A DNA stretch of 64,000 nt from an archaeon (GCA_043814055.1 JBDRKL010000004.1:80518-144517), one strand, 5' to 3'; positions 1 to 64,000 are shown, counted from the first letter of the stretch. Numbers and translations are program-made. Notes: generated by a model from the letters alone, not told the origin.

Positions 1-447
1 ATAATTAAAACCCTGCGCAAGGATGGCAACGATATTGAAATCCGACCCGAGCTTACAGGGAAAGCAACGCAGTTCGGCAATCTTGACGAGCTCATCCGGC
101 TCAGCCAGGATATTGAAGGCGTTCTGCCGTGCATTGATTTCGCGCACATGTTTGCGCGCACTGGGAAGTTCAACTCGTACGTTGAATTTATGTCAATGCT
201 TGAAAAGATTGAGGTCAGCCTCGGCAAGAAAGCCCTGCAGAACATGCACTGCCACGTGTCAGGCATAGAATTCACTGAGAAAGGTGAGCGCAGGCACTTG
301 GAAATGCCAGATTCTGACTTTCATTACTTAGATTTGGCAAAAGCGTTCAAGGACTCTGGGATGCGCGGCATAGTGATTTCAGAAAGTCCTAATATTGAAT
401 TAGATGCTTTGCTGATGAAAAAATTGTATGGTCAATCAGCTCGGTAG
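1..447 (+). CDS. Endonuclease IV-like TIM-barrel protein (5' truncated by window edge)
   Basis: Frame 1 open from base 1: RPELTGKATQFG...PCIDFAH...HCHVSGI...ISESP, typical of archaeal Nfo/AP-endonuclease-2 family. Confidence 0.8.
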   Translation: MIKTLRKDGNDIEIRPELTGKATQFGNLDELIRLSQDIEGVLPCIDFAHMFARTGKFNSYVEFMSMLEKIEVSLGKKALQNMHCHVSGIEFTEKGERRHLEMPDSDFHYLDLAKAFKDSGMRGIVISESPNIELDALLMKKLYGQSAR

Positions 448-555
448 TCCCGCAATGAATCGCCAGAAAATGTAAAAATAATATTGCTGACGTTTCATTG
501 CGCCCGCAGCATCATCAAAGTAATGCGGACAGCCATCCTCCGCGACCAGGCGGAG
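439..555 (+). repeat. Multi-hairpin repeat element (type A) with internal inserted hairpin
   Basis: GCTCGGTAGTCCCGCA (439-454) identical to 32501-32516; 15-nt loop GCATCATCAAAGTAA; 7-nt linker; terminal hairpin CTCCGCGACCAGGCGGAG 538-555; extra hairpin CGCAATGAA/TTCATTGCG (451-459/494-502). Confidence 0.8.
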
Positions 556-581
556 TGATGAAGAAATTGTATTCTATCTAA
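556..581 (+). pseudogene. Displaced duplicate 3' end of the endonuclease IV-like gene (MKKLYSI*)
   Basis: TGATGAAGAAATTGTAT (556-572) vs TGATGAAAAAATTGTAT (413-429), one synonymous difference, followed by TCT ATC TAA. Confidence 0.75.
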
Positions 582-1275: not shown

Positions 1276-1686
1276 ATGCCTTTTGAATATATTGAGCACG
1301 AGGCGGACATTGGAATTAAAGGAACGGGCAAGACAGTGGAAGAGGCCTTTGCAGAGGGAGCCAGGGCAATGTTCGGTATTATGGTTGATTTGGAAAAAGT
1401 TGACCCTGTCAAAAGAATTGAGGTTGAATGCGAAGCTGAAAACATCGGGTCTCTTTTTGTTGAATTTCTTAATGCCCTGCTCGCTCAAGTCAACATTGCA
1501 GAAATGTTCTTTTCAAAGTTTGAAGTTAAGATTGACGGTACTCATCTGACTGCAACTGCGTGGGGTGAGCAGATTGACCAGGAGAAGCACCAGACCAAGA
1601 TTGAAGTCAAGGCGGCGACTTTCTCTGGGTTGAAGTATGAAGAGAAAGATGGGGTTCACTCAATTCAGTGTGTGGTTGATGTGTAG
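1276..1686 (+). CDS. Archease (RtcB cofactor)
   Basis: EYIEHEADIGI N-terminus, EVKAATF C-terminal motif; adjacent to rtcB. Confidence 0.95.
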   Translation: MPFEYIEHEADIGIKGTGKTVEEAFAEGARAMFGIMVDLEKVDPVKRIEVECEAENIGSLFVEFLNALLAQVNIAEMFFSKFEVKIDGTHLTATAWGEQIDQEKHQTKIEVKAATFSGLKYEEKDGVHSIQCVVDV

Positions 1687-1690
1687 AGTT

Positions 1691-1773
1691 AACCAAAGGC
1701 AATCAAATGGCTTGGTAAAGTCACAGCTTCATTTATTTCTTGTGGCTTGCTCTTCCTCCGCGAGCAGGCGGAG
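1691..1773 (+). repeat. Multi-hairpin repeat element (type A)
   Basis: Aligns along its length with 32362-32444; GGTA 1714-17, stem AAGTCACA/TGTGGCTT, 15-nt loop, 7-nt linker, CTCCGCGAGCAGGCGGAG 1756-1773. Confidence 0.85.
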
Positions 1774-1856
1774 AAGTCAAGGCGGCGACTTTCTCTGGGC
1801 TGAAATATGAGGAGAAGGACGGGGTGTATTCAGTAATTTGTGTTTTGGATGTATAA
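1773..1856 (+). pseudogene. Diverged duplicate of the last 28 codons of archease
   Basis: EVKAATFSGLKYEEKDGVYSVICVLDV* vs EVKAATFSGLKYEEKDGVHSIQCVVDV* (1603-1686); first 27 bp identical. Confidence 0.92.
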
Positions 1857-1981
1857 TTTTTTTTATAACAATATATAAATACATTCAAATTAACAATCGT
1901 TAAGTTCACAATTGTTAATACAGCGACTTTTTGAAGAGACATCCAGCGACTCTGGAACTGCTGAACTAGGAGGTGATACAA

Positions 1982-2212
1982 TTGCTCAATGCATTTTTGC
2001 TGATAAACACGAAACCGGGAAGGGGGAGAGAGGTTGTTGAGAAATTGTTGGAACACGAGGAGTTTGAAGAGGTAAGGCAGGTCTACGGCGACTATGACAT
2101 ATTTGGCAAGGTGAGCATATCAAGCATGGATGAGCTGAACAAGTTCCTGCTTGAAACAATAAGGAACATGCCGGATGTTGAGCTCTCAAACACACTGGTG
2201 CAAATGGGCTAA
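1982..2212 (+). CDS. Stand-alone Lrp/AsnC ligand-binding domain protein
   Basis: AFLLINTKPG...VYGDYDI pattern; TTG start 1982 after GGAGGTGA ribosome-binding site. Confidence 0.85.
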   Translation: MLNAFLLINTKPGRGREVVEKLLEHEEFEEVRQVYGDYDIFGKVSISSMDELNKFLLETIRNMPDVELSNTLVQMG

Positions 2213-2247
2213 AATACTTAAATAGCCGGGAGCAACAGAGCTGCGAC

Positions 2248-3690
2248 ATGGACCTTACCTTGAAGCAAACCGAAGAGCTAGTATGGGAGCTCCCAAAAAC
2301 TGGCGAAATGCTTGTTCCTGGAAGAATCTACGGCGACGAAGAAATCGTGAAGCACCTTAACAATGACGTGAAAGCCGGAAAGGACTGGAACGCTCTGAAG
2401 CAGGTTTACAACGTGGCGTGCCTGCCAGGAATTCAAAAAGCGTCGCTCGCGATGCCAGACGTGCACCCAGGATATGGCTTTCCAATCGGCGGTGTCGGGG
2501 CATTTGACACTGAAACCGGGGTAATTTCAGTTGCAGGAGTTGGCTTTGATATCAACTGCGGAGTCCGGACTTTAAAGACACCGCTCAAAAAGGATGATGT
2601 TGAAAAGAAAAAGAAAGAGCTCGCTGAAGTTTTATTCAGGGTAATCCCAGCTGGACTCGGCTCAACCGGCGACATCCGCCTGAGCATAGACCAGATTGAC
2701 GAAGTGCTGGTAAATGGTGCTAAGTACTCAGTAGAAAATGGATATGGCTTAAAGGAAGACCTTGAATTCATTGAAGAAAATGGAAAAATCGCAAATGCAA
2801 ATCCTGAGAATGTCTCACGAACCGCGAAGCAGAGGCAGTTCAAGCAGATAGGCACGCTCGGCTCTGGGAATCATTATCTTGAAGTGCAGTATGTTGATGA
2901 AATCTTTGACGAGGTGGCTGCAAAAGCATATGGGCTGGAAAAAGGCCAAATCCTGGTTTCAATTCACTGCGGCTCCCGCGCGCTCGGCCACCAAATCGGA
3001 ACTGACTACCTCAAAACTTTGGAAGCTGCGTCAAAGAAATACAAAATCCCAATCCGCGAGAAAGAGCTTGTATGCGCCCCGTTCACGAGCGAAGAGGGCC
3101 AGCAGTACTTCACCGCAATGAACTGCGGAATAAACTGCGCGTTTGCGAACCGCCAGGCGCTTGCTCACTTGACGCGGAAGGGTTTCACAGAAGTATTTGG
3201 TCTTGGAGAAAAAGAAGTTGAAACCTTTTACGAAATCGGGCATAATACCTGCAAGCTTGAGGAGCACGACGGCAAAAAGCTCATCGTGCACAGGAAAGGC
3301 GCAACAAGAGCGTTCGGCCCTGGGCGAAAAGAAGTGCCGAAAAAATACCGAGAAATCGGCCAGCCAGTCCTGGTCGGCGGGACAATGGGGACGTGCTCTT
3401 ACATACTCCACGGGACTCAGAAAGGGATGGACGAGACCTTCGGAAGCGCGTGCCACGGGGCAGGGAGAAATATGAGCCGCCAGCAGGCCAAGCGCGAGTA
3501 CTTCGGGGAAACAGTTATAAAAGAGCTCGCCGCAAAGGGCATAATAATCAAGGGTCATTCAAAGTCCGGAGTTTCAGAGGAAGCGCCAGGTGCCTACAAG
3601 GACGTTACTGAAGTGGTTGACGTAATGCATACTTCAGGAATTGCGAAGAAAGTTGTGAAAGTTAAACCTTTAATATCAATAAAGGGATAG
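2248..3690 (+). CDS. rtcB: RNA-splicing ligase RtcB
   Basis: PDVHPGYG, DINCG, GNHY, HCGSR, HRKGA, HGAGR motifs. Confidence 0.97.
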   Translation: MDLTLKQTEELVWELPKTGEMLVPGRIYGDEEIVKHLNNDVKAGKDWNALKQVYNVACLPGIQKASLAMPDVHPGYGFPIGGVGAFDTETGVISVAGVGFDINCGVRTLKTPLKKDDVEKKKKELAEVLFRVIPAGLGSTGDIRLSIDQIDEVLVNGAKYSVENGYGLKEDLEFIEENGKIANANPENVSRTAKQRQFKQIGTLGSGNHYLEVQYVDEIFDEVAAKAYGLEKGQILVSIHCGSRALGHQIGTDYLKTLEAASKKYKIPIREKELVCAPFTSEEGQQYFTAMNCGINCAFANRQALAHLTRKGFTEVFGLGEKEVETFYEIGHNTCKLEEHDGKKLIVHRKGATRAFGPGRKEVPKKYREIGQPVLVGGTMGTCSYILHGTQKGMDETFGSACHGAGRNMSRQQAKREYFGETVIKELAAKGIIIKGHSKSGVSEEAPGAYKDVTEVVDVMHTSGIAKKVVKVKPLISIKG

Positions 3691-15357: not shown

Positions 15358-15475
15358 CTCCGCCTGGCCGCGGAGGTGGGCCACGTCGGGGGATGCTCGC
15401 TTCAGCACGCAGCTCGTGCTGAGGCATGCGCTGCGTGTCTCTGCATGCTGGCGCATGCAGATCACTCGATCCCCC
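15358..15475 (-). repeat. Multi-hairpin repeat element
   Basis: Terminal hairpin CTCCGCCTGGCCGCGGAG 15358-75 (reverse complement of 32213-30); nested stems GGGGGAT/ATCCCCC, TCAGCACG/CGTGCTGA, CTGCATGC/GCATGCAG. Confidence 0.75.
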
Positions 15476-15505
15476 ATATTGAGAAAAACATGAAAGCACC
15501 AAACA

Positions 15506-15565
15506 CTCCGCCTGGCCGCGGAGGATGGCGTCAGGGGCATTCGCTCCTTTCAGTCGCGAAGCCCC
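15506..15565 (-). repeat. Multi-hairpin repeat element (type B) flanked by duplicated nre start
   Basis: CTCCGCCTGGCCGCGGAG 15506-23; GGGGC-TTCGC...GCGAA-T-GCCCC hairpin on minus strand; ATGAAAGCACCAAA at 15490-15503 and 15579-15592. Confidence 0.8.
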
Positions 15566-31888: not shown

Positions 31889-31910
31889 TTCTATAAGACA
31901 CCATATTACT

Positions 31911-31975
31911 TGCAGTGAAGAAGTGAACACCCTCTGATACCGCCCAAAGATGATGAGTATGGTAGCTTCTGAGCA
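31911..31975 (+). ncRNA. Archaeal box C/D methylation guide sRNA
   Basis: TGC-A-[C GTGAAGA 31915-21]-12 nt-[D' CTGA 31934-37]-12 nt-[C' ATGATGA 31950-56]-12 nt-[D CTGA 31969-72]-GCA; terminal TGC/GCA stem. Confidence 0.8.
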
Positions 31976-32036
31976 CTCAATGATTTTTTGGTCCAGCTTT
32001 TGCGCGAGTTTTGCGAGCGGAAAAGGTGGGTGCCAG

Positions 32037-32084
32037 CACCCTCTGATACCGCCCAAAGATGATGAGTATGGTAGCTTCTGAGCA
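32037..32084 (+). repeat. Exact 48-bp duplicate of the sRNA 3' part
   Basis: Identical to 31928-31975. Confidence 0.97.
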
Positions 32085-32169
32085 ATCTTTTTCCTTCCAA
32101 TTTATCAAAAACGTCGGACGCACAGCGTCCGAGGCCAACGCGCTTCGCGCGTCTGGAGCTTGACCAAAA

Positions 32170-32564
32170 ACAGTGCTGCTGCTTGATGTTTTTGAAGCAG
32201 CACGTGGCCGCTCTCCGCGGCCAGGCGGAGATAGCAGTAGCTTCTGAGCAATCGTTTTCACAAACTTCTATTGAGGCTTCGCCGATGGCGAATGCCTCTG
32301 CTCTGCCTCCGCGAGCAGGCGGAGCTTCTGAGCAATCTAAACTTTTATTTTTCACAAATTTGACCGAAGGCACCCGAATGGCTTGGTAATGCCACAGCAT
32401 CACCAATTTTATGTGGCATGCTCTGCCTCCGCGAGCAGGCGGAGCTTCTGAGCAATCTAAACTTTTATTTTTCACAAATTTGACCGAAGGCATCCTACTT
32501 GCTCGGTAGTCCCGCAGCATCAAAAATTTCTTGCGGGACAAAGTGCCGCCTGATTTTTCAGGCG
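32170..32564 (+). repeat. Tandem cluster of four hairpin elements separated by copies of the sRNA 3' end AGCTTCTGAGCAATC
   Basis: Terminal hairpins at 32213-30, 32307-24, 32427-44, 32547-64; 74-bp exact repeat 32299-32372 = 32419-32492 (period 120). Confidence 0.9.
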
Positions 32565-32604: not shown

Positions 32605-32915
32605 CCTCCGGGGGTCTGACTGTATTGGGGAGGCATTTCCAATCTCTCAGAACAAGCTTGGGTTGAGGTGGGATCTGTGAAAGCCTTCGGGCTTACATGG
32701 AATTTATCTTGACCCACTCTAAGATTGGACTGGGTGGGGGAACGCGAAACCTTCGGGCGACGCGCAATTCAACCCGGTCCACTCTAAACTTGGATTGGGG
32801 TTGGACATGTAAAATTTTCGGATTTTATGCGAAAGATCTCAATCCACTCTAACCTGGACCAGGTGGGAGAGCGCGAAAGTTTCGGCAGACGCGTAATTTA
32901 ACTTGGTCCACTCTT
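32605..32915 (+). ncRNA. Putative novel structured RNA with four tandem covarying UUCG hairpins
   Basis: Units 32659-716, 32726-781, 32791-846, 32855-910; each TGG...TTCG...CCA followed by CTCT(AA); G-U pairs favour plus strand; ends approximate. Confidence 0.75.
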
Positions 32916-63035: not shown

Positions 63036-63040
63036 TTTAG

Positions 63041-63063
63041 ATGTACGCTGTCTCCCTCAGCCA
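63041..63063 (-). pseudogene. Displaced duplicate of pheS 3' end
   Basis: ATGTACGCTGTCTCCCTCAGCCA identical to 63154-63176; ends ATC TAA one base before pheT ATG. Confidence 0.9.
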
Positions 63064-63124
63064 CAGCCGCAAAATCGGCTGGCGCTTTGTGCTACGTTCG
63101 CTCACTTCGTTCGCGAAGCAGCAC
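63064..63124 (-). repeat. Multi-hairpin repeat element (type B) between duplicated pheS ends
   Basis: Minus strand GTGCTGC...GTAGCAC stem, linker AAAGCGC, CAGCCGATTTTGCGGCTG abutting the duplicate. Confidence 0.8.
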
Positions 63125-63149
63125 TCTTTAGTTATGTTATTTTGTGATA

Positions 63150-64000
63150 TCATATGTACGCTGTCTCCCTCAGCCATTTCAAATCATTCTTGTAATAAAA
63201 GTATCTGATGTCTTTCAATCCCAAGGCAAGCATTATCGGCCTCTCCAGGCTCAAGCCCCATGCAAGCACAGGCACGTTAATTCCCAAGGGTTCCGTAACC
63301 TCTGGCCGGAATATTCCAGAACCTCCTAACTCAATCCATTCCCCAATTGATTCCATCCAAACCTCGGGTTCAACGCTCATCTCTGTGTACGGGAAATACG
63401 AAGGCCTGAACCTGATTTTTTCAAAGCCCAGCCTCCAGAAGAACTCTTTCAAGTAACCAAGATGGTCCTTGAAAGTTGCGTTCTCATCCACAACAATTCC
63501 GTCAATCTGGGTGAACTCTGGCAAGTGCTTGTAATCAACTGTCTCGTTCCTGAAAGTCCTTCCAATGGAAAAGACCTTCGCGGGCGGCTTGACCTTTGAA
63601 AGCCACCTTGCGGAAACCGCAGTGCAGTGAGTCCTCAAAACAGGGTTCTTTGCAATATCTGGGGTCCACTTATACCCCCAGCCGCTTGAGTTTTTCACGC
63701 CTTTTTCATGCGCGTTTTTGACATTCTCAACTATCTTCGCGTCCGGCAGCTTGGACTCTTTTGGATTCTCTAGGTAAAAAGTGTCTGCCAGGTCGCGGCA
63801 CGGGTGGTCCTGGGGCTGAAACAGCGCGTCAAAGTTCCAGAAGCTTGATTCAACAACCGGCCCGTCTGCCTCTTCAAATCCCATTTGCAAATAAATCTTC
63901 CGTATTTTGTTTGTCGCAATCGTGAGCGGATGCAGCTTGCCGCCAAAAACCTTGGGCACTTCCGCGTTCAAGTCGTATTTCCTGAATTTTTTGCCTTTCC
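63150..64000 (-). CDS. pheS: Phenylalanyl-tRNA synthetase alpha subunit (5' truncated by window edge)
   Basis: FWNFDALFQPQDHP, RNETVD..HLPEF, PSYFPYTE, GGSGIFRPE. Confidence 0.97.
   Translation of the reverse strand, partial: KGKKFRKYDLNAEVPKVFGGKLHPLTIATNKIRKIYLQMGFEEADGPVVESSFWNFDALFQPQDHPCRDLADTFYLENPKESKLPDAKIVENVKNAHEKGVKNSSGWGYKWTPDIAKNPVLRTHCTAVSARWLSKVKPPAKVFSIGRTFRNETVDYKHLPEFTQIDGIVVDENATFKDHLGYLKEFFWRLGFEKIRFRPSYFPYTEMSVEPEVWMESIGEWIELGGSGIFRPEVTEPLGINVPVLAWGLSLERPIMLALGLKDIRYFYYKNDLKWLRETAYI

What the first reader, a model, noticed from the sequence alone, without database searches (positions are those of the whole stretch)
1603..1856. Archease has two alternative C-termini that diverged under protein selection, separated by the element
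Seen: 28 codons at 1603-1686 are repeated at 1773-1856 right after the element. The first 27 bp are identical; then 13 codons differ, 9 synonymously (including TAG/TAA) and 4 by amino-acid changes (H/Y, I/V, Q/I, V/L), with no indels. Inference: a dead duplicate would not decay mainly at silent sites, so both copies evolved as functional alleles in different lineages. A ~170-bp unit (core + foreign 3' end + element) appears to have recombined in at the 27-bp core and displaced the resident terminus, implying element-linked import of gene ends.
Basis: partly seen in the sequence, partly recalled or inferred. Interest (0 to 1): 0.8.

Follow-up and report, generated by a model that had tools for sequence, protein, structure and literature searches.

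The report
Swapped archease gene end beside hairpin element
A tiny, protein-less hairpin DNA element sits just after the archease gene of a small DPANN archaeon. On either side of it lie two differently spelled copies of the gene's last 28 codons, which looks like a replacement gene end brought in with the element while the old end was left behind.

Summary
Bases 1603-1686 and 1773-1856 are an ungapped 84-bp repeat. The first 27 bp are identical, and 18 differences lie in the last 57 bp: 9 synonymous or stop codons and 4 amino-acid changes. An 86-87-bp hairpin element separates the copies.

The divergence is not decay of a dead duplicate. In the divergent part pS is 0.96 and pN is 0.15. Simulations of "one live copy, one dead copy" give a joint probability of at most 5e-4. 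The break after base 27 is as sharp as a recombination junction (P about 3e-4). In the last 57 bp the two tails differ as much as true orthologues from other families do.

The layout is general in this genome. At least nine other housekeeping gene ends are duplicated around small hairpin cassettes, including FttA, GAPDH, DUF357, DUF63, Trm61, PheRS-alpha and thermosome. Pooled over nine scored loci including archease, Sd is about 44 and Nd about 17.

No tyrosine integrase, IS200-type transposase, TnpB or reverse transcriptase was found.

Best reading, at about 0.55: a unit of element plus gene end entered by homologous recombination at the core and displaced the resident terminus.

Three things limit this.

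The parts
1276..1686 (+). Archease gene (136 aa), complete. Its last 28 codons are repeat copy 1.
   Evidence: ORF list. Pfam PF01951 Archease, E 3.9e-40, profile 1-136/136. 451 homologues, best non-self 69% identity.
1603..1629 (+). Core, copy 1: 27 bp encoding EVKAATFSG, identical to 1773-1799.
   Evidence: True orthologues differ from it at 5 (L020) and 10 (L024) of these 27 bases, so the identity is not plain conservation.
1630..1686 (+). Tail 1: the working C-terminus LKYEEKDGVHSIQCVVDV plus TAG. Inferred to have come in with the element.
   Evidence: In frame with the ORF. Matches the family consensus, including Q131 (115/119) and the invariant D135.
1687..1773 (+). Hairpin element, about 86 bp, no ORF. 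It has a 5' module TTAACCAAAGGCAATCAAATGGCTTGGTAA, a stem-loop GTCACAG...TGTGGC, and a terminal hairpin CTCCGC-GAGCAG-GCGGAG (1756-1773).
   Evidence: 11 matches in the genome; contexts. The fold shows local hairpins only, z -1.5. The exact terminal hairpin occurs 15 times in this genome and 3 times in two genomes of another family of the order.
1773..1799 (+). Core, copy 2. It abuts the element's terminal hairpin directly.
1800..1856 (+). Tail 2: a displaced archease terminus LKYEEKDGVYSVICVLDV plus TAA. It is out of frame with the gene (spacing 170 = 2 mod 3) and is inferred to be the resident former end.
   Evidence: 18 differences from tail 1, Sd 10.7 / Nd 6.3. H128Y, I130V and V134L are common family variants; Q131I is unprecedented in 119 homologues. 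It shares the rare F116, V127 and S129 with tail 1.
1857..1864 (+). Run of eight T directly after tail 2. This is likely the original archease transcription stop (archaeal oligo-T terminator; from established knowledge).
   Evidence: Sequence. No comparable T run follows tail 1.
413..581 (+). Second case, 1.1 kb upstream, at the 3' end of the AP_endonuc_2 gene. The 17-bp repeat TGATGAARAAATTGTAT (413-429 / 556-572, one synonymous difference) flanks an element ending GCGGAG at 555. The new C-terminus GQSAR* (430-447) is read from the element's own 5' module. The displaced end SI* (573-581) still overlaps the stop of the convergent gene.
   Evidence: The closest relative's contig L020 has the same convergent overlap and no element.
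63037..63176 (-). Third case in the window, at the 3' end of PheRS alpha. The working end WLRETAYI-TGA (63150-63176) and a displaced copy WLRETAYI-TAA (63037-63063) flank a hairpin cassette. The only differences are ATA/ATC and the stop codon.
   Evidence: Pfam tRNA-synt_2d, E 3.3e-87.

Best explanation
A very small, protein-less mobile unit entered the archease gene. It consists of the 86-bp hairpin element joined to a copy of the archease 3' end that had evolved as a working terminus elsewhere, in another lineage or on the element itself. It entered by homology-dependent recombination in the conserved EVKAATFSG-coding stretch. The recombination was a Campbell-type single crossover or an ends-in event, or an equivalent exchange with a donor that already had this layout. 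The result is body - core - imported tail 1 - element - core - resident tail 2 - original oligo-T terminator. The gene stays intact because the imported fragment includes the terminus. The resident terminus is left behind as an untranslated relic. The identical 27-bp cores mark the crossover or heteroduplex-repair tract. Shown here: the anatomy, selection on both tails, the sharp junction, recurrence at about ten gene ends, and the absence of four classes of mobility enzyme. Inferred: the foreign origin of tail 1, the polarity, and the use of host recombination.
For: (1) Exact anatomy. (2) Both tails evolved under protein constraint. In the last 57 bp pS is 0.96 and pN is 0.15. Simulation of a live copy plus a dead copy gives a joint probability of at most 5e-4 at any divergence time. 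(3) There is a recombination-like break: 0/27 then 18/57 differences, P = 3e-4. Tail 1 versus tail 2 in the last 57 bp (18 differences) equals tail 1 versus true orthologues (19, 12), and those orthologues differ at 5-10 of the first 27 bases. (4) The layout is general. Gene-end duplicates around small hairpin cassettes occur at FttA/aCPSF1, DUF357, GAPDH (5' end), DUF63, Trm61, PheRS-alpha, primase, a diphthine-synthase-like gene and thermosome. Pooled over nine scored loci including archease, pS is 0.52 and pN is 0.057. A binomial test against the dead-copy model gives about 1e-9 to 1e-10. (5) Every duplicated fragment contains the gene's start or stop. That is what insertion-duplication by homology allows if the gene is to survive. 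(6) At GAPDH an identical 17-bp core has divergence on both sides, as a single crossover of a fragment-bearing unit predicts. (7) Polarity: at the neighbouring AP-endonuclease locus the copy abutting GCGGAG keeps the ancestral overlap with the convergent gene, as seen in relative L020. Tail 2 keeps the T8 terminator. (8) The element moves between lineages: near-identical copies occur in genomes of another family whose genes are only about 70% identical. (9) No Phage_integrase, Y1_Tnp, TnpB or RVT_1 was found in the genome, and the control genomes were positive.
Against: No donor allele, empty site or close relative was found anywhere: the best homologue is 69% identical, and 15 other archease loci have no tail duplicate. 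Homologous exchange between sequences this diverged is inefficient. A 27-bp identity had to exist beforehand or be created by mismatch repair. Both tails share rare residues (F116, V127, S129), so the 'foreign' tail comes from a near relative at the protein level even though synonymous sites are saturated. Tail 2 has Ile at the near-invariant Q131, which is odd for a recently working end. How the element-core junction first arose is unexplained. Short, perfect repeats of 9-25 bp at other copies look like ordinary target duplications. The genome is a metagenome bin that is 82% complete, so an enzyme may lie in the missing part. Reads could not be checked.
Confidence: 0.55

Rival explanations
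1. Divergence in place, with both ends under selection in the same lineage. The element inserted once with a long (84-bp) target duplication. The locus then cycled for a long time between occupied and empty states by recombination between the repeats, or exchanged with element-free genomes of the same population. Each tail was therefore periodically the working one. The core stays identical because it is the exchange site.
For: It fits the selection on both tails, the shared rare residues F116/V127/S129, the identical core, and the perfect short repeats at other copies, which look like target duplications. It is formally like e14/icd-icdC, where excision recreates a working chimeric gene (PMC13626634).
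Against: Frequent exchange between the two copies should homogenise them, yet synonymous sites are saturated (pS 0.96). It needs a target duplication of 58-87 bp at several loci, which no known transposase gives. No recombinase was found. Q131I in tail 2 argues that it has not been in use recently.
Confidence: 0.17
2. Assembly artefact. Two co-occurring related populations were joined through the shared element, so the two tails belong to different genomes and never lie on one molecule.
For: The genome is a metagenome bin of 14 contigs, 82% complete. The element is a repeat longer than common k-mer sizes. Reads could not be inspected. The archease protein occurs on a single contig in the whole protein collection.
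Against: The element-core junction must exist in real reads, so some genome has the element followed by a partial archease end whatever the join. The same layout occurs at about ten loci on contigs C4, C7, C10, C12 and C13, and twice within 1.2 kb here (413-581 and 1603-1856). That would need repeated strain switches over distances shorter than a read pair. The repeat boundaries coincide exactly with start and stop codons and with element ends, not with arbitrary points. Bin contamination is 0.21%. At the AP-endonuclease locus the new end is element-encoded, not an allele.
Confidence: 0.08
3. Plain target-site duplication followed by neutral decay of the downstream copy, with no transfer and no selection on tail 2.
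For: Other copies of the family are flanked by short direct repeats of the target. Q131I in tail 2 looks like decay.
Against: With a dead copy, about 65% of differences should be non-synonymous. Observed non-synonymous counts are 6.3 of 17 at archease and about 17 of 62 pooled, binomial about 1e-9 to 1e-10. Simulation for archease alone gives at most 5e-4. There are no stops or indels in tail 2, and no difference at all in the first 27 bp.
Confidence: 0.03
4. A regulated alternative C-terminus. The element plus one repeat (170 nt) is removed from the mRNA, for example as an intron cut by the tRNA splicing endonuclease and sealed by RtcB/archease. The cell would then make archease with either tail.
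For: Removing 170 nt between equivalent repeat positions would keep the frame. Both tails look selected. The neighbouring gene is RtcB. Hairpin modules of this family resemble intron hairpins in this genome's tRNA genes (sequence seen).
Against: Folding of 1590-1875 and 1680-1780 shows only local hairpins, no bulge-helix-bulge joining the two junctions, and z-scores of -1.3 to -1.5. Direct repeats cannot pair with each other. Spacings at other loci are 157, 168 and 128 nt, with different cassettes. Tail 2 lacks the near-invariant Gln.
Confidence: 0.03

Closest known systems
Mobile-ORF (mORF) gene hybrids of fungal mitochondria: Allomyces macrogynus atp6; Glomus sp. atp6, atp9, cox2, nad3 (PMC3630166, read)
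   Same: [quoted passage not shown] The two termini have low nucleotide but high protein identity (atp6: 63.5% nt, 91% aa). This is interpreted as horizontal import of a gene end with the element. It recurs at several genes of one genome.
   Different: There the insert is a roughly 1-kb LAGLIDADG or GIY-YIG homing-endonuclease gene that cuts the target. Here the insert is 86 bp with no ORF, no nuclease was identified, the host is an archaeal chromosome, and 5' gene ends and RNA gene ends are hit too.
Integrase-type elements that insert into the 3' end of a protein gene and carry a replacement end: e14 and phage 21 in E. coli icd, leaving the icdC pseudogene (PMC13626634; Hill et al. 1989 cited there)
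   Same: The layout is gene body - element-borne replacement end - element - displaced native end. The two ends differ mainly by synonymous changes plus a few conservative replacements. Recombination between them regenerates a working chimeric gene.
   Different: e14 is a 15-kb prophage with its own site-specific recombinase and one fixed attachment site. Here the 'element' is 86 bp, the targets are many unrelated gene ends, and no Phage_integrase domain was found in the genome.
Repetitive hairpin-forming elements: double-hairpin elements of fungal mitochondria, sponge RHEs (PMC2800124); Rickettsia palindromic elements and M. jannaschii MJRE repeats (own knowledge, not checked here)
   Same: They are short, ORF-less, G+C-rich hairpin modules, dispersed, modular, tolerated at gene borders and sometimes in frame, with no known enzyme.
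   Different: Allomyces hairpin elements are reported to lack flanking duplications (PMC2800124). None of these families is described as being flanked by a recoded spare copy of the host gene's end.
MITEs and other transposase-mobilised miniature elements
   Same: They are small, non-autonomous and multi-copy, and are flanked by direct repeats of the target.
   Different: MITEs have terminal inverted repeats and a target duplication of fixed length. Here no terminal inverted repeat was seen, the flanking repeats range from 9 to 87 bp, and the long ones are diverged at synonymous sites.

Membership tests
Integrase-mediated integrative element with replacement gene end (e14/phage 21-icd type) | Target gene end duplicated on both sides of the insert, with an identical crossover core and diverged arms | tested here: met
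   a 27-bp identical core, then 18/57 differences.
Integrase-mediated integrative element with replacement gene end (e14/phage 21-icd type) | A tyrosine (or serine) site-specific recombinase encoded by the element or the genome | tested here: not met
   The 86-bp insert has no ORF. PF00589 is absent from the 82%-complete genome while all 14 control genomes are positive. Serine recombinases were not searched.
Integrase-mediated integrative element with replacement gene end (e14/phage 21-icd type) | One specific attachment site per element family | tested here: not met
   Copies with the same terminal hairpin sit at archease, thermosome, tRNA, sRNA-like and other unrelated sites.
Mitochondrial mORF / homing-endonuclease gene hybrids | An inserted C-terminus in phase with the gene, the native C-terminus displaced downstream, low nucleotide and high protein identity between them | tested here: met
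   68% nucleotide and 78% amino-acid identity over the divergent 18 codons.
Mitochondrial mORF / homing-endonuclease gene hybrids | The insert encodes a LAGLIDADG or GIY-YIG endonuclease | tested here: not met
   86 bp between the copies. The only frame is a 38-codon TTG-started read-through into tail 2.
Mitochondrial mORF / homing-endonuclease gene hybrids | The displaced native terminus matches close relatives better than the inserted one does | not testable with these tools
   The nearest relative is 69% identical. At that distance tail 1 is in fact closer to the orthologues than tail 2 (12 and 19 versus 17 and 23 differences), which is not informative about recent history.
MITE (transposase-mobilised miniature element) | Terminal inverted repeats | tested here: not met
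   The repeat finder on 1200-2300 reports no inverted repeat at the element ends. The ends are TTAACCAAAGG... and ...GCAGGCGGAG.
MITE (transposase-mobilised miniature element) | Target-site duplication of fixed length | tested here: not met
   Flanking repeats of 9, 11, 14, 15, 17, 20, 25, 58, 84 and 87 bp.
IS200/IS605-derived palindrome-associated elements (with TnpA/TnpB) | A Y1 transposase or TnpB present; insertion without target duplication | tested here: not met
   PF01797 and PF07282 are absent and the controls are positive. Flanking duplications are present.
Diversity-generating retroelement (variable repeat at a gene's 3' end plus template repeat) | Differences confined to adenines of one copy; a reverse transcriptase nearby | tested here: not met
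   Only 5 (tail 2) or 4 (tail 1) of the 18 differences involve an A in one copy (sequence). PF00078 is absent.
Repetitive hairpin-forming elements (DHE / RHE / RPE-like) | Short, dispersed, ORF-less units made of hairpins | tested here: met
   Compensatory stem variants are seen among copies: GTCACA/TGTGGC, GCCACA/TGTGGC, CCCGCA/TGCGGG (sequence).

The most novel reading that the evidence does not exclude
These hairpin cassettes are a so far undescribed class of protein-less selfish element. Each carries a recoded copy of a host gene's terminus as its own homology arm. It spreads between archaeal lineages by inserting at that gene through host recombination, possibly helped by hairpin-induced breaks or by an RNA or DNA guide formed by the terminal hairpin plus the adjoining core. 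The host cannot lose the element imprecisely without damaging an essential gene. Gene ends of housekeeping genes would then be routinely exchanged between species in small-genome archaea.
Probability: 0.3. Interest if true: 0.85.

Novelty: new variant of a known kind. Interest (0 to 1): 0.65.

Why it matters
Replacement of a gene's end by mobile DNA is known for prophages with integrases and for mitochondrial homing-endonuclease genes. Here the same outcome is linked to an 86-bp element with no gene of its own, in an archaeon where no integrase, IS200-type transposase, TnpB or reverse transcriptase could be found. It has happened at about ten essential genes of a 1-Mb genome. If real, three things follow. 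Very small non-coding elements can carry pieces of housekeeping genes between lineages. Gene termini in reduced genomes may be mosaics. And there is a concrete case for asking how enzyme-less elements move, which remains unsolved for hairpin repeats in organelles, Rickettsia and archaea. It also matters for annotation: the relic ends look like small ORFs or pseudogenes.

Tried and rejected
- **Diversity-generating retroelement.** Rejected. The differences are not adenine-specific and no reverse transcriptase was found.
- **RNA splicing or bulge-helix-bulge intron.** Folding gives only local hairpins. Kept as a 3% rival.
- **Rfam.** Nothing but three tRNAs in the window at gathering scores.
- **Donor or empty site.**
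  - 41 related genomes searched by DNA.
  - The 5.8-billion-protein search.
  - Contigs of the two nearest homologues.
  - A metagenome scan.
  - The nearest archease is 69% identical, and none of 15 archease loci has a tail duplicate.
- **Independent assembly.** 294 kb of relative G006, which carries the same terminal hairpin, was scanned with the same pipeline. It has no gene-end duplicate of 30 bp or more.
- **Insertion motif.** I looked by eye for a consensus at the left edge of the duplicated segments in ten loci and found none (sequences).

Full report
**What is there**

The window is contig C4:80518-144517 of a 0.98-Mb, 14-contig, 82%-complete archaeal genome bin. One homologue named by NCBI is from 'Candidatus Undinarchaeales'.

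ORF 1276-1686 is a full-length archease: Pfam PF01951, E 3.9e-40, profile 1-136 of 136. It is followed by a 79-codon Lrp/AsnC ligand-domain ORF at 1973-2212 and by RtcB at 2248-3690.

The repeat finder reports a single direct repeat, 1603-1685 / 1773-1855, 80% identical, ungapped, spacing 170.

- Codon 1603 is in frame with the archease ORF.
- The first nine codons (27 bp, EVKAATFSG) are identical.
- Of the next 19 codons, eight differ synonymously and the stop differs (TAG/TAA).
- Four codons encode different residues: H128Y, I130V, Q131I and V134L.

Between the copies lies 1687-1773. It has a 5' module TTAACCAAAGGCAATCAAATGGCTTGGTAA, a stem-loop, and a terminal hairpin CTCCGC-GAGCAG-GCGGAG whose last G abuts, or is shared with, the second copy. 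An eight-T run, the usual archaeal stop signal, follows tail 2 and not tail 1.

**Is the divergence what a dead duplicate would show?**

No. By Nei-Gojobori counting, the divergent 57 bp have 10.7 synonymous differences on 11.2 synonymous sites (pS 0.96, saturated). They have 6.3 non-synonymous differences on 42.8 sites (pN 0.15).

I simulated the in-situ model, with one copy under purifying selection and one evolving freely, over divergence times from 0.05 to 1.0 substitutions per site. The joint probability of at least the observed synonymous count, at most the observed non-synonymous count, and no stop codon in the free copy never exceeded 5e-4.

The differences are also not spread evenly.

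- None falls in the first 27 bp although 18 fall in the remaining 57 (hypergeometric P = 3.3e-4).
- Third positions differ at 0 of 9 versus 12 of 19 (Fisher P = 0.003).

For scale, I compared both tails with the archease ends of the two nearest homologues, L020 (69% protein identity) and L024 (66%).

| Comparison | Differences in last 57 bp | Differences in first 27 bp |
|---|---|---|
| Tail 1 vs tail 2 | 18 | 0 |
| Tail 1 vs L020 | 19 | 5 |
| Tail 1 vs L024 | 12 | 10 |

So the two tails are as far apart as orthologues from different families, yet their cores are identical. That is the signature of a recombination junction, not of conservation.

**Are both tails plausible archease ends?**

I aligned 119 homologues.

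- Tyr at 128, Val at 130 and Leu at 134, the tail 2 states, are common in the family: 47, 46 and 22 sequences.
- The invariant D135 is kept in both tails.
- Both tails share F116, V127 and S129, which are rare in the family. At the protein level they are each other's nearest relatives.
- Ile at 131 is unprecedented: Gln occurs in 115 of 119 homologues and Ile never.

Tail 2 is also out of frame with the gene. I conclude that tail 2 evolved for most of its history as a working archease end and is now a relic, possibly already damaged. An alternative alignment with two single-codon indels (S-IQC versus SVI-C) would remove the Q/I clash and lower pN further. I cannot choose between the two alignments.

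**The locus is one of many**

The 86-bp element belongs to a dispersed, modular family. A motif scan plus local alignment showed that the sequence just after the terminal hairpin repeats the sequence that lies before the element at most copies. The repeated segments include tRNA 3' ends, an sRNA-like 3' end, start-codon regions and gene ends.

A codon-blind search for direct repeats of at least 30 bp, 30-400 bp apart, that contain an ORF terminus found further gene-end duplicates.

| Gene end | Location | Sd | Nd | Note |
|---|---|---|---|---|
| FttA/aCPSF1, 3' end | C4:51169-51394 | 7 | 0 | Stops TAA/TAG |
| DUF357, 3' end | C7:36389-36632 | 11 | 5 | 87 bp |
| GAPDH, 5' end | C7:110503-110688 | 5 | 1 | |
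| DUF63, 3' end | C10:96132-96252 | 5 | 1 | Peptides identical |
| Trm61/GCD14, 3' end | C13:25884-26064 | 2 | 1 | Peptides identical |
| PheRS alpha, 3' end | window 63037-63176 | 1 | 0 | Stops TGA/TAA |
| Fused primase | C7:14605-14740 | 0 | 1 | |
| Diphthine-synthase-like gene | C7:33860-33993 | 2 | 2 | |

Pooled over the nine scored loci (archease and the table rows except thermosome), Sd is about 44 on 83.5 sites and Nd about 17 on 303.5 sites, giving pS 0.52 and pN 0.057. Against the roughly 65% non-synonymous share expected if one copy were dead, the binomial probability is about 1e-9 to 1e-10.

Short flanking repeats of 9-25 bp are perfect. The long ones are all diverged.

**Polarity**

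1.1 kb upstream of the archease locus, the AP_endonuc_2 gene shows a simpler event. The 17-bp repeat TGATGAARAAATTGTAT flanks an element that ends in GCGGAG.

- The gene now reads into the element's own 5' module and stops at its GGTAG, giving the new end GQSAR*.
- The copy after the hairpin continues as SI* and still overlaps the stop codon of the convergent membrane-protein gene.
- The closest relative's contig L020 has the same overlap. It has no element, and archease there is followed directly by RtcB.

So the copy that abuts the terminal hairpin is the resident one. By analogy, and because tail 2 keeps the T8 run, I take tail 2 as resident and tail 1 plus element as the incomer. This is an inference.

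**Mechanism**

In all four long cases an identical segment of 17-34 bp lies on the gene-body side of the repeat, and the terminus-proximal part is diverged. At GAPDH the identical 17 bp has divergence on both sides.

This is what a single reciprocal exchange produces. The exchange would be a Campbell-type or 'ends-in' event between the chromosome and a unit made of a gene-end fragment plus the element. It gives body - core - incoming end - element - core - resident end. Only fragments that contain the terminus leave an intact gene, which explains why every duplicate includes a start or a stop codon. The identical cores may be the heteroduplex tract after mismatch repair rather than a pre-existing identity.

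The genome lacks any detectable Phage_integrase, Y1 transposase, TnpB or RVT_1 domain, while the control genomes were positive. Host recombination is therefore the most economical agent. The missing 18% of the genome and untested enzyme families leave this open.

The element itself does move between lineages. The exact 18-nt terminal hairpin and near-identical bodies occur in two genomes of another family of the order, whose genes are about 70% identical to these. It is absent from the ten other relatives in the order.

What I cannot explain is how the element-core junction was first made. Nor can I say whether the short perfect repeats arise by the same route or by a separate insertion step.

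**Rivals**

- **Cycling in one lineage between occupied and empty states.** This would also keep both tails under selection. It predicts homogenisation, which is not seen, but I cannot exclude it (0.17).
- **A chimeric assembly.** It needs the element-partial-gene junction to be real anyway. It would require repeated strain switches, twice within 1.2 kb here, with boundaries that happen to fall on codon and element ends. Without reads I leave it at 0.08.
- **Neutral decay of a target duplication.** This is statistically rejected (0.03).
- **RNA-level removal of 170 nt.** This finds no support in folding (0.03).

**Comparison with what is known**

The closest described systems are two.

- **The mitochondrial mORF gene hybrids of Allomyces and Glomus.** There a homing-endonuclease gene arrives with a foreign, in-phase C-terminus and the native C-terminus is left downstream. 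The two termini share 63.5% nucleotide but 91% protein identity at atp6 (PMC3630166).
- **The integration of e14 or phage 21 into E. coli icd.** This leaves the icdC relic, which differs mainly by synonymous changes (PMC13626634).

The present case shares the outcome and the sequence signature with both. It fails the defining feature of each: there is no endonuclease gene, no integrase, and no single attachment site.

It shares the physical nature of hairpin repeats such as DHE, RHE and RPE. Those are not described with recoded spare gene ends, and the Allomyces elements are said to lack flanking duplications (PMC2800124).

Two full-text searches for an archaeal description found none. That library is incomplete, so this is weak evidence of novelty.

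Earlier notes of this scan report the same layout in other DPANN, CPR and methanogen genomes. I treat them as leads only.

**Verdict**

- **Observation:** confirmed.
- **Interpretation:** supported in its core (two termini shaped by protein selection, joined at a recombination junction, linked to the element). It is unproven in its history: donor, polarity and physical contiguity.
- **Novelty:** a new variant of a known kind.
- **Interest:** 0.65.

Noticed in passing
window 31900-32560: A tandem pile-up of four or five hairpin cassettes. Each is followed by a fresh copy of the same short 3' end (G)CTTCTGAGCAATC. The first copies end a C/D-box-like unit (ATGATGA ... CTGA) that is itself present twice (31928-31978 / 32037-32087). 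The last cassette runs into an AAAGCTTTATATA promoter-like box in front of the hairpin array at 32605-32915.
   Followed up: partly
window 15358-15523 (C4:95875-96040, minus strand): Two cassettes ending CTCCGCGGCCAGGCGGAG lie next to each other. Each is followed by a copy of GGTGCTTTCAT, the reverse complement of a start-codon region, so one gene start appears three times.
   Followed up: no
window 413-581: The AP_endonuc_2 gene now ends in five residues (GQSAR) read from the element's conserved 5' module, whose GGTAG/GGTAA supplies the stop. The element family can therefore donate a C-terminus and a stop codon of its own.
   Followed up: yes
whole genome G000: No Phage_integrase (PF00589) match at all, so no XerA-type recombinase either, although all 14 control genomes, including four archaea, are positive. 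This may reflect the missing 18% of the genome or a real loss.
   Followed up: no
window 1865-2247 versus locus L020:3423-3428: In the nearest relative, archease and RtcB are 4 bp apart. Here about 560 bp lie between them (the element, tail 2 and an AT-rich stretch), including a stand-alone Lrp/AsnC ligand-domain ORF (1973-2212). The operon link has been broken in this lineage.
   Followed up: partly
proteins P0004, P0008, P0014, P0019, P0020 (archease homologues): Several related archeases carry in-frame, low-complexity Pro/Gly/Ala-rich inserts of 10-20 residues at one loop (for example KGAPGLGGAGAQIEKY). These look like translated G+C-rich hairpin repeats inserted in frame.
   Followed up: no
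G000 C4:75958-76151 and C10:32372-32646: Perfect direct repeats of 83 bp and 71 bp separated by 28 bp and 133 bp. The second lies inside a TPR-like repeat protein. The first covers the 5' end of a possible 123-codon ORF. Neither was examined further.
   Followed up: no
locus L015 (G037:C1, a one-contig genome of another archaeal lineage): A multi-hairpin cassette ends in CGCCGCGAGCAGGCGGCG, a compensatory variant of the terminal hairpin. It directly abuts the 3' end of a tRNA gene on the other strand.
   Followed up: no
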